Source of the DNA: Chrysomallon squamiferum
Lineage: Eukaryota; Animalia; Mollusca
NCBI GenBank assembly: GCA_012295275.1
Contig: CM022671.1
Coordinates: forward strand, 11,408,001-11,472,000
Direction: 5' to 3'
Length of the DNA: 64,000 nt
The notes below the pieces were generated by a model. That model was not told where the DNA came from, did not search any database, and worked only from the letters and a program-made list of their open reading frames with translations. Positions 35,501-38,500 of this stretch are shown one piece after another (position 1 is the first letter of the stretch; each line of letters opens with the position of its first letter). The position numbers and the translations under genes were made by a program.

Positions 35501-38500
35501 ACACGAGTCGGAAATAAGCAGGAAACCATTCACAGTAATTCAGTACAAACCATTCCTCAACATGTACTGCTGTTAAACACAAGCAATGTACAATGCGGCT
35601 TTCCAGGTCTCAATTATAATTTACAGGCAAACATCATTAAACACTGAGCTGTGCCATTTCATGCTGCAAACTCTACAAGAAATAATTATTGTCCTGCTTG
35701 ATACTCTAAAATATTGTGGCATGTAGAAGAGGTTGCACTTCTGAAAAATATACATGCAAAATACTTGTGCTCATTGAATGTATATAATCATTAAAGCAAA
35801 ACGCATTTGTGCTTTTTCCTAGACTTGTTTTGCAGTGCTGCCCTGGTTGCAGATTCAAACACTTCTCGCACTCCATCTTTGGTCTTTGCTGAACATTCTA
35901 AGTAGTGATTAGCACCAATTTTTGTAGCCATTGCATGACCTTCTTCATACTTCACAGGCTCTTGTTTCATTTTCAGCAATTCTCTTTTTGTGTTTTCATC
36001 ATTTCGAAGATCTCTTTTGTTTCCAACCAAGATTATTGGCACATTGGGGCAAAAATGGTGAACCTCTGGGGTCCATTTTTCAGGAATATTCTCTAAACTG
36101 TCAGGGCTGTCTATGGAGAAGCACATAAGAATGACATCTGTGTCAGGGTAAGAAAGTGGACGTAGTCTGTCATAATCTTCTTGGCCAGCTGTATCCCAAA
36201 GTGCCAGCTCGACCTATAAATATAGTTAATTTATAAAAACATTTTAAAAGATTTTTTTATATTATTTAAAACTTGGCTTTAGCATCCTCATGTATCATCA
36301 AATATAGTCAATTCAATCAAAATTCTTCAGATAAGAATAAAGTTGTATTCTTTTTATGCATTTACAATTAAATAAATGTATCTGTATACTTTGTGTATGT
36401 ATGTGAATATATATTTAAGTACTAATTAAAAGTGCTGCTAAATCATACTGAAGCAATTATATACAAGGAAGCTGATTTGCAGTGTTATTTATGAACATTT
36501 TCTAAATTACAAATAGGAAACACATTTTCTAATTGATCTTGTAATATATAAAAAATGTCTGATCTAATAAATTGAAACAAATGCAAATATTAGAAAAACA
36601 GGGAAATCACAATTAACTTTGTTAGACATATTTAATAAAACATTATTACAAATTAGCACCTCACTTGTAAAAAGAAGTCAAAACATGCAAATGTATGTAA
36701 AGGGGGTTTTTTGTTGTTTTTTTAACAAAACATTCCATATAGCATTTGAAATTGTTCCATTTTAATTTCTTTTAATTTCAACAAATGAAGCAAATCCGGA
36801 AATACATTTCTTTAACAGTTGTGTTTGATTACATTCTTGTGTACAATGAACACCAATCAATTTTATCCTTCCTATATAAAGAAGGCATTATTTATAATGG
36901 GTGTAGATTAAAAGCCAAAGTGTACTAGTCCTGTGAAACTTAAGTTTCAAGCTGGTGCTAATCATCATAACACCTGCTAATGTAACAAGTGTTATGAATA
37001 TACTAAATTAATATTTTGTTATTTATTAATTTAACACACTGAACCAACTATCAAAAAAGATACACAAACTCTTCTACATTAGATATAAAAATCATTCATC
37101 ATTAAAAATAAAAAGAATGGAAACATGTTTATACAAGTACATTTTAAAATATAAAGAATTGAAGAGCTCCATTCCAAAACATCCTTAGTCAATTCTCTGA
37201 TTTCTTTAAGGCAATAAGAATAGTTGTTTAACAAGTTCCAGATAGCATTTGATGTCCCTACATTTTTCATATACAATATGAATGTAACAAGTATGTTCTA
37301 CAGCATTAAAACACACACCAGAATGACATGTTTGTGAATGCTAGGAATCTGATAAAAAGCTAATTTGAAAAACAAAATTAAAGGCATTTGTGAAAAGAGC
37401 TCTTCATTTGTCAAACATATATTCAGTACTGTATTTATATACAAAATCTAAAATACAACTAATTTTCATCAAAATCACCCACTCTGCTTCTTTTTAAAAA
37501 GAGACAAGTCAGCAGTTCAAAAAACAACAACAAAAAAAACAATTAAAAAAAACAAAAAAAAACTTAAGAACCTAGGTTATGTAATAAAACATTTCAGGCT
37601 AACTAAAAAAACATATACTTTTGGCTGGCTAATTATTCTGAACGATCAATGTAAACATATATTTATGTATTATCTTTTGTAATGACAACATTTTCTCAAC
37701 AATGTTTGAGGAAATCTGGTTTTCTCTTTGAAATGTACTTGTTTCACTACTGCACAAGCAACCCATTTTAATTCTAGGTCAATGCTGCTGCCACACATTT
37801 GTCTCAGTTAGATCACACAAAACTCTGAAAACCTATCTTAGCCTTTTAAAGATGTTAATGTGGTAGACAAGATGTCAGCTGATTGTAGTACAAGTTATAT
37901 GCTTACAACAGGAGAGCTTAATTTTCCAACACTGTTGACAAAATAGTTATGTTTCTTTTTAAGAAGAAACTCACTGATCAGAATGTAATTGAACAGAACA
38001 TCATCAAGCAGAAAGATAAATGAAAAGTTGTTAATTGAAAATGAATAAAACAGACTATCACATTAGCAAGAGAAACACTGTTAAACAAAACTGAAAGGAA
38101 AAGCATTGCTGAACAGTTTCCAAAGACAGGTACAAAGTAGGTGATCAAATATCATCAGATTGTCAAAACATCACCAAGCAAAATATTGAAAGAGAAGAAC
38201 ATCACTGAGTGAAAGTTCATTAAATTTGAATAAACAATAGTAAATGAAAATATCAGATTATCATCAAATAAACATTGTCAAACAAAATGCTTTCAACATT
38301 GGTAAGAAAAAATTGATCACAACAGAATAAAATTAAATCTAATTTGAACATATTTTTTTTTAGATATATCGTTGATCTGATGTTGGATAAGAAACTACTA
38401 ATTGAATGCTACAGATTAAGGTATTAAGGTATTAAAAGAATTAAGCTATTAAAAGTTATAAATATGACTCAAAATATCTAAAGCAAAAAAAAAAAAAATA

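What the first reader, a model, noticed from the sequence alone, without database searches (positions are those of the whole stretch)
36061..36213. Sharp homogenised tract at the 5' end of the two Rho terminal exons
Seen: 36061-36213 vs 32781-32933 differ at only 6 of 153 nt, including a perfect 92-nt run (36116-36207 = 32836-32927) spanning ~30 codons with no synonymous change. The next 60 nt already show 11 differences, the remainder is more diverged, and the flanking introns are unalignable. Inference: this is an old duplication with recent or recurrent gene conversion restricted to the G3/switch II region while the C-terminal halves are kept distinct. Alternatively, nucleotide-level constraint from shared splicing elements could explain it.
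Basis: partly seen in the sequence, partly recalled or inferred. Interest (0 to 1): 0.7.

Follow-up and report, generated by a model that had tools for sequence, protein, structure and literature searches.

The report
Gene conversion between RhoA alternative exons
This mollusc RhoA gene has two old alternative last exons that differ at most silent positions yet are almost identical over their first 153 bases, likely because DNA was copied from one to the other, a known process seen here in an exon pair that is likely shared across molluscs and their relatives.

Summary
Observation confirmed: 6 of 153 bases differ and 92 are identical in a row. The window holds one RhoA/Rho1 gene: a single coding exon 2 (residues 1-52), then two alternative last exons, A (36213-35791) and B (32933-32511). 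Silent differences fall in 4 of 47 codons in the tract and 38 of 65 after it (p = 4e-8). Other Rho1 genes show no silent-site conservation there (860 control pairs). Independent read data hold both copies at the predicted depth, so it is not a polishing artefact. The two-exon layout appears in protein models of 16 molluscs, a nemertean and an annelid among them, with a conserved downstream type that B matches, so the pair is likely ancient. Best reading (0.8): non-allelic gene conversion confined to the protein-invariant switch II/alpha3 stretch. Ongoing conversion is not shown, and no DNA for both exons of a second species was obtained. Regional conversion between tandem exons is known (protocadherins, newt Nav1.4). 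I found no paper on this Rho exon pair; one oyster study read it as two tandem genes.

The parts
43531..43645 (-). 5' untranslated exon of the Rho1 gene (5' end not fixed)
   Evidence: Joint 40601/43529, CT..AC with cut +2, in RNA run X8 and in X10; donor GTGAGT
40437..40603 (-). Shared coding exon 2, ATG at 40592, residues 1-52 (P-loop, switch I)
   Evidence: Only exon-2-like sequence in the window (tblastn; motif scan); Pfam Ras 1-47
35791..36213 (-). Alternative last exon A (upstream), residues 53-192, ends CVLL
   Evidence: Open frame and AG acceptor; joined to exon 2 in an X10 contig, 0 other letters over 35868-36211; A-type junction contig in X9
33283..35790 (-). Likely long 3' UTR of isoform A
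   Evidence: One X8 RNA contig spans 33283-36100; contigs cannot show the true end
32511..32933 (-). Alternative last exon B (downstream, conserved type), residues 53-192, ends CILL
   Evidence: Open frame and AG acceptor; 2% from the Pomacea downstream exon over residues 118-180; body covered in RNA run X9, junction not seen
36061..36213 (-). Homogenised tract, copy in exon A (residues 53-103)
32781..32933 (-). Homogenised tract, copy in exon B
   Evidence: X2 DNA contig 32791-34182 with 0 other letters
36116..36207 (-). 92-base perfect core (= 32836-32927)
   Evidence: 0 differences in 28 informative codons
36112..36115 (-). Island of 3 differences in 4 bases at codons 85-86 (I86 in A, V86 in B; = 32832-32835)
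   Evidence: clustering p 0.003; both forms read: A letters in X1 and X9, B letters in X5 and X7

Best explanation
One RhoA/Rho1 gene carries two tandem alternative last exons 3,280 bases apart whose first 153 bases are nearly identical while their other silent sites are saturated, likely because non-allelic gene conversion copied that stretch between the two likely ancient exons. Shown: the layout, the sharp drop in silent differences, both copies in independent reads, splicing of exon 2 to A. Inferred: exon 2 splices to A or B, giving two 192-residue proteins with the same P-loop, switch I and switch II but 23 differing residues, 21 of them after residue 118 (insert helix, alpha4 region, polybasic tail). 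Purifying selection keeps residues 53-103 invariant, which preserves enough DNA identity for mispaired recombination; conversion is harmless there and would be purged where it erases isoform differences, so it stops near H104/R104 and at the unalignable intron. More than one event is likely, but that step is the weakest.
For: Silent differences 4/47 vs 38/65, p 3.6e-8. Control on 860 pairs among 40 fetched Rho1 coding sequences plus A and B: mean silent difference 0.61 in codons 1-51 and 0.60 in 52-128; the A/B gap of 0.49 exceeds the largest control gap of 0.28; among 620 pairs with similar 3' divergence the lowest 5' value is 0.27 and the longest identical run 42. Depth of the 137-base contig over the tract is 1.71 times single-copy in X1 (1.68 predicted if both copies are identical in the reads). 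The first two codons, beside the unalignable intron, still differ, as expected at a homology edge. Tract sites are mutable: X7 has a silent change at 32865, depth ratio 1.37 against 1.40 predicted for B only. P0001, an A-type protein differing at 2 tail residues and its first letter, was called with its start at L57, which implies a start-type codon there, likely TTG, where both window copies read CTT (inference from how prokaryotic gene callers choose starts). A's H104 codon CAC is one step from B's CGC and two from a lysine codon, the commonest state in other upstream exons. Downstream exons of 16 of 16 models carry M132 and R140, as B does. No unusual fold (z 0.32, 0.73), no Rfam match, no complementary partner (score 26, shuffle maximum 31).
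Against: No DNA for both exons of any second species was obtained, so the 5' versus 3' gene trees were not built. GC3 is not raised in the tract (0.39 and 0.33 vs 0.35 and 0.39), unlike converted protocadherin regions. The one variant found in the tract is not shared by both copies. X5's depth ratio (2.23) overshoots the prediction. The protein tree does not place A: its nearest rows are downstream exons and an A+B clade is not rejected (p-AU 0.10); the profile score separates 'downstream type' from 'anything else' (insect and fish Rho also score upstream-like). A mussel-like upstream exon (L023) differs from the tract at only 20-21 of 153 bases with a 35-base shared run, which could reflect some constraint. 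S109 of oyster, scallop and pearl-oyster downstream exons has not spread to their upstream exons in 4 of 4 fused models. The exon 2-B junction was not seen.
Confidence: 0.8

Rival explanations
1. Nucleotide-level constraint: both exons keep the same bases because a shared splicing enhancer or RNA element covers the first 150 bases.
For: The tract sits right behind the competing acceptors. L023 is unusually close to it (20-21 of 153 differences, against 28-35 for three other invertebrate loci). Constraint special to duplicated exons is not measured by a control of mostly single-exon genes.
Against: The two codons nearest the acceptor differ. L023's 5' silent difference (0.36-0.42) is in the range of other control pairs such as L022/L041 at 0.375. 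A silent variant exists in the core in X7 and P0001 implies another codon at L57. No structure, partner or RNA family.
Confidence: 0.1
2. A single copying event, possibly templated by a reverse-transcribed spliced mRNA, followed by a few ordinary and one multi-base mutation; no recurrent exchange and no selective border.
For: One event explains the sharp edge; the tract is confined to exon sequence; the variant at 32865 is private to one copy.
Against: Three of four interior differences lie within 4 bases (p 0.003), which needs a multi-base mutation or a skipped patch. The CAC/CGC pair at codon 104 and the T121 state in both Dreissena exons hint at other events. This is still conversion, so it differs from the best reading only in tempo.
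Confidence: 0.07
3. Assembly or polishing cross-talk overwrote one copy with the other.
For: Two near-identical stretches 3.3 kb apart are prone to this; only contigs, no raw long reads, were laid.
Against: Contigs of other runs give the same letters: X2 over B's tract into its intron, X10 over A's, 0 other letters each. Tract depth is 1.71 and 2.23 times single-copy in X1 and X5, with no third version listed at a 1% threshold. X1 and X5 may be sources of the assembly; X2 and X10 are from two other studies.
Confidence: 0.02

Closest known systems
Regional gene conversion among clustered protocadherin variable exons (PMC1852091, passages read; PMC1885805, passages read)
   Same: Tandem alternative exons spliced to shared exons; one part of the exon homogenised at silent sites, another kept distinct.
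   Different: Many first exons versus two last exons; GC3 rises in the fugu converted regions but not here; tract only about 150 bases.
Duplicated exon of newt Nav1.4 homogenised by conversion (PMC8476164, abstract read)
   Same: Non-allelic conversion between two duplicate exons of one gene.
   Different: There it spreads adaptive changes; here it covers a protein-invariant stretch of a likely much older pair.
Concerted evolution limited to coding sequence, and peaks of divergence under conversion (review PMC3924837, passages read)
   Same: Purifying selection keeps similarity that sustains conversion after non-coding homology is lost; selection can block it locally.
   Different: Those cases are whole genes (yeast duplicates, opsins).
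Tandem duplicated exon substitutions of C-terminal type (PMC9741552, passages read)
   Same: Homologous alternative last exons giving isoforms with swapped C-terminal parts; 77 such human events, mostly ancient.
   Different: The words RHOA and conversion occur 0 times in its main text; here 140 of 192 residues are swapped.
Oyster CgRho-1/CgRho-2 (PMC4669188, section 9 and passages read)
   Same: Likely the same pair: oyster exon 2 plus downstream exon gives 192 aa, 21.66 kDa, pI 5.65, the values tabled for CgRho-1.
   Different: Described as two tandem genes found in oyster but not scallops, Ks 1.534, CgRho-2 incomplete and barely expressed; no alternative exons or conversion in the passages seen.
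Dscam duplicated exon arrays (PMC3236188, passages read)
   Same: Tandem alternative exons.
   Different: No gene conversion was found there.

Membership tests
RhoA/Rho1 subfamily GTPase | Ras-family G domain with closest solved relatives RhoA/B/C | tested here: met
   Pfam Ras on all three coding exons; best PDB hits RhoA, E 3e-76, residues 53-193
RhoA/Rho1 subfamily GTPase | Rho insert and polybasic tail with CAAX | tested here: met
   Aligned without gaps to RhoA through the insert; ends CVLL and CILL after basic runs
Tandem duplicated alternative last exons | Two homologous exons, same phase, one shared upstream exon, no second exon 2 | tested here: met
   tblastn finds one exon 2 and two last exons in the window; both have AG acceptors, phase 0, 141 codons
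Tandem duplicated alternative last exons | Both exons spliced to the shared exon in RNA | tested here: inconclusive
   Exon 2-A joined in X10 and A-type in X9; B body covered in X9 but junction not seen; contigs drop minor variants
Non-allelic gene conversion tract | Significant run of silent-site identity between otherwise diverged paralogues | tested here: met
   Run test 1e-5, change-point test 0 of 20,000
Non-allelic gene conversion tract | Not explained by general constraint on the region | tested here: met
   860 control pairs, no 5' deficit
Non-allelic gene conversion tract | Paralogues closer within species than orthologues between species | tested here: inconclusive
   No second-species DNA pair; one indirect codon from P0001; residues 53-103 are invariant in all 32 exon copies, so proteins carry no signal
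Non-allelic gene conversion tract | Variants shared between the copies in populations | tested here: inconclusive
   One variant in the tract among 7 runs laid; depth fits B only
Non-allelic gene conversion tract | Raised GC3 (common, not required) | tested here: not met
   0.39/0.33 in the tract vs 0.35/0.39 outside
Conserved RNA element | Stable fold, pairing partner or Rfam match | tested here: not met

The most novel reading that the evidence does not exclude
Spiralian RhoA has made two isoforms from duplicated last exons since before molluscs, annelids, nemerteans and brachiopods split, a one-gene parallel to vertebrate RhoA/RhoC, and the two exons still trade DNA across the switch II block, with selection on isoform-specific residues (86, 104 and beyond) setting the borders.
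Probability: 0.35. Interest if true: 0.6.

Novelty: new member of a known kind. Interest (0 to 1): 0.4.

Why it matters
It is a clean two-copy case in which conversion and divergence sit side by side in one 423-base exon of a core signalling gene, so tract borders and the selection that sets them can be measured with existing mollusc genomes. It also points to a likely spiralian-wide RhoA isoform pair that databases fuse into 306-340-residue models or split into two genes, and that one oyster study took for an oyster-specific duplication. Practically, probes, RNAi or read counts aimed at the first 150 bases cannot tell the isoforms apart.

Tried and rejected
No whole genome was held for the window. 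The metagenome scan gave 80 loci, none with two last-exon copies, but the animal contigs are short; genome and viral scans gave 10 and 6 loci, none used. Exact look-up of the window's exon proteins found 0 of 4, so B's counterpart in the P0001 species was not found. Protein tree of residues 118-180 (42 rows, 63 columns): 24 of 37 inner branches open, A unplaced; a downstream clade (p-AU 0.20) and an A+B clade (0.10) both not rejected. Ranking the isoforms by RNA depth was rejected: contig depth is flat and the tool warns against it; the kept junction path was A-type in X9 and X10. The X9 contig over B is 2,527 bases, like the DNA contigs (2,511-2,547), so it does not prove a transcript. Chance and a recent whole-exon duplication were rejected. 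A quasi-palindrome origin for B's codons 85-86 (4-base arms) explains 2 of 3 changes only. Ten literature searches (listings and abstract starts) showed no paper on this exon pair or its conversion; subscription journals are mostly missing and no supplements were opened (those of PMC4669188 and PMC9741552 may bear on this). Earlier scan findings: nothing.

Full report
Observation. Both are the 5' ends of 423-base minus-strand exons that encode residues 53-192 of a RhoA-type GTPase. Among codons with the same residue and a silent choice, 4 of 47 differ in codons 1-51 and 38 of 65 afterwards (p 3.6e-8); run and change-point shuffles give 1e-5 and 0 of 20,000. Upstream introns and 3' UTRs do not align beyond shuffles. 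The edge is sharp and the later rise is not significant (p 0.17).

Gene layout. The window has one exon 2 (40437-40603, residues 1-52) and two last exons, A then B, 3,280 bases apart. Run contigs join a 5' exon at 43531 to exon 2, and exon 2 to A. B is intact with a good acceptor and its body is covered in RNA run X9, but its junction was not seen; contigs drop the minor of two near-identical paths. The isoforms would share P-loop and both switches and differ at 23 residues, 21 of them after residue 118. The animal is likely a gastropod: B is 2-3% from Pomacea, Batillaria, Littorina and Octopus downstream exons over residues 118-180 and has R104 like most gastropod downstream exons.

Not an artefact. 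Seven of the 12 listed runs were laid. X2 reads B's tract into its intron and X10 reads A's tract, with 0 other letters. If both copies are identical in the reads, a 137-base contig over the tract should have 1.68 times single-copy depth; X1 gives 1.71 and X5 2.23. X1 and X5 may be sources of the assembly; X2 and X10 come from two other studies. X7 carries a silent change at 32865 with ratio 1.37, against 1.40 expected if only B has it. So tract sites mutate, and this variant has not been copied.

Not general constraint. I used 40 of the 80 fetched loci (those close enough to read in frame over 128 codons; L040 and L042-L080 left out) plus A and B. Over 860 non-independent pairs, silent difference averages 0.61 in codons 1-51 and 0.60 after; the largest gap is 0.28 against 0.49 for A/B. 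The tract folds no better than shuffles, has no complementary partner in the pre-mRNA and no Rfam match. Against this, the mussel-like upstream exon L023 is closer to the tract than other loci are, and the control is mostly single-exon genes.

Age. A search for longer proteins returned fused models with one exon 2 and two last-exon copies. Of 38 proteins split, I kept 16 spiralian models (four gastropods, a chiton, eight bivalves, an octopus, a nemertean, an annelid), dropping redundant, degenerate, two-P-loop and non-spiralian ones. All 16 downstream copies have M132 and R140, as B does; A does not. Database isoforms with a shared N-terminus and either exon exist for Mytilus, Argopecten and Lingula. 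Caveats: fused models can also arise from tandem genes (Aphis and Trichomalopsis show two P-loops; starfish, coral, aphid and vertebrate models look similar), and the tree does not place A. A's match to the ancient upstream exon therefore rests on position and on not being the downstream type. The saturated 3' part shows in any case that the pair is far older than the tract.

Mechanism. Residues 53-103 are invariant in all 32 exon copies. That keeps first and second codon positions alike, enough for mispairing between copies 3.3 kb apart, and makes conversion harmless there (inference; the same logic is given for yeast duplicates in PMC3924837). The tract starts two codons inside the exon, next to the lost intron homology, and ends at H104/R104. 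An island of three differences at codons 85-86 (p 0.003) holds the only residue change inside; it may be a skipped, selected site or a multi-base mutation. Hints of more than one event: A's CAC is one step from B's CGC; P0001 implies a different codon at L57 in a close relative's A exon while both window copies read CTT; Dreissena has T121 in both exons. GC3 is not raised, and direction and date are unknown (core silent divergence below about 0.13).

Comparison with what is known. Regional conversion among tandem exons is described for protocadherins (PMC1852091, PMC1885805; passages) and for a duplicated Nav1.4 exon (PMC8476164; abstract), and was not found in Dscam (PMC3236188; passages). 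Homologous C-terminal exon swaps are a known class (PMC9741552; passages). PMC4669188 (section 9 and passages) reports oyster CgRho-1 and CgRho-2 as tandem genes; the computed oyster exon 2 plus downstream form matches its CgRho-1 values exactly, so it likely saw this pair. Ten searches showed no paper on the pair as alternative exons or on its conversion.

Verdict. Real, and best explained by non-allelic gene conversion (0.8). A new member of a known kind; interest 0.4, mostly for the likely ancient and overlooked RhoA isoform pair.

Noticed in passing
P0257, P0260, P0280-P0296: Many spiralian database Rho models of 306-340 residues splice the upstream exon, at an internal GT, onto the downstream exon, giving a doubled partial GTPase. 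Probably prediction artefacts, but they recur; exon A here lacks the usual donor after residue 180.
   Followed up: partly
P0246, P0252, P0296: Argopecten isoform X2 resembles the downstream type more than the Mizuhopecten upstream exon does, so scallops may have a third last exon.
   Followed up: no
window 33283-35790: Isoform A likely has a 3' UTR of about 2.5 kb that fills most of the gap to exon B; AATAAA-type signals at 35131, 34364 and 33610.
   Followed up: partly
window 44795-48823 (+) and 57283-51663 (-): Two convergent ankyrin-repeat genes, 32% identical over their first exons; the minus-strand one ends in a weak SOCS box match.
   Followed up: partly
window 40750-42600: High-copy repeat in Rho1 intron 1: laid depth rises 50- to 100-fold.
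   Followed up: no
window 12651-16205: Long diverged tandem minisatellite with strong strand skew, inside what looks like a minus-strand gene (exon-like frame 12031-12747, no Pfam match).
   Followed up: no
window 59162-60819 (+): Broken non-LTR retrotransposon-like frames; weak RNase H match.
   Followed up: partly
window 24854-25552 (+): 232-codon open frame, serine/threonine/proline-rich with a hydrophobic end, no Pfam match.
   Followed up: no
L081-L096: Rho-like genes in prokaryote-labelled and viral contigs; L081 (89% identical) is probably animal contamination; several at 43-56% lie on long contigs.
   Followed up: no
window 32565-32600 and 32884-32918: Short matches from other single-copy contigs in all three DNA runs, probably other small GTPase genes of the same animal.
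   Followed up: no
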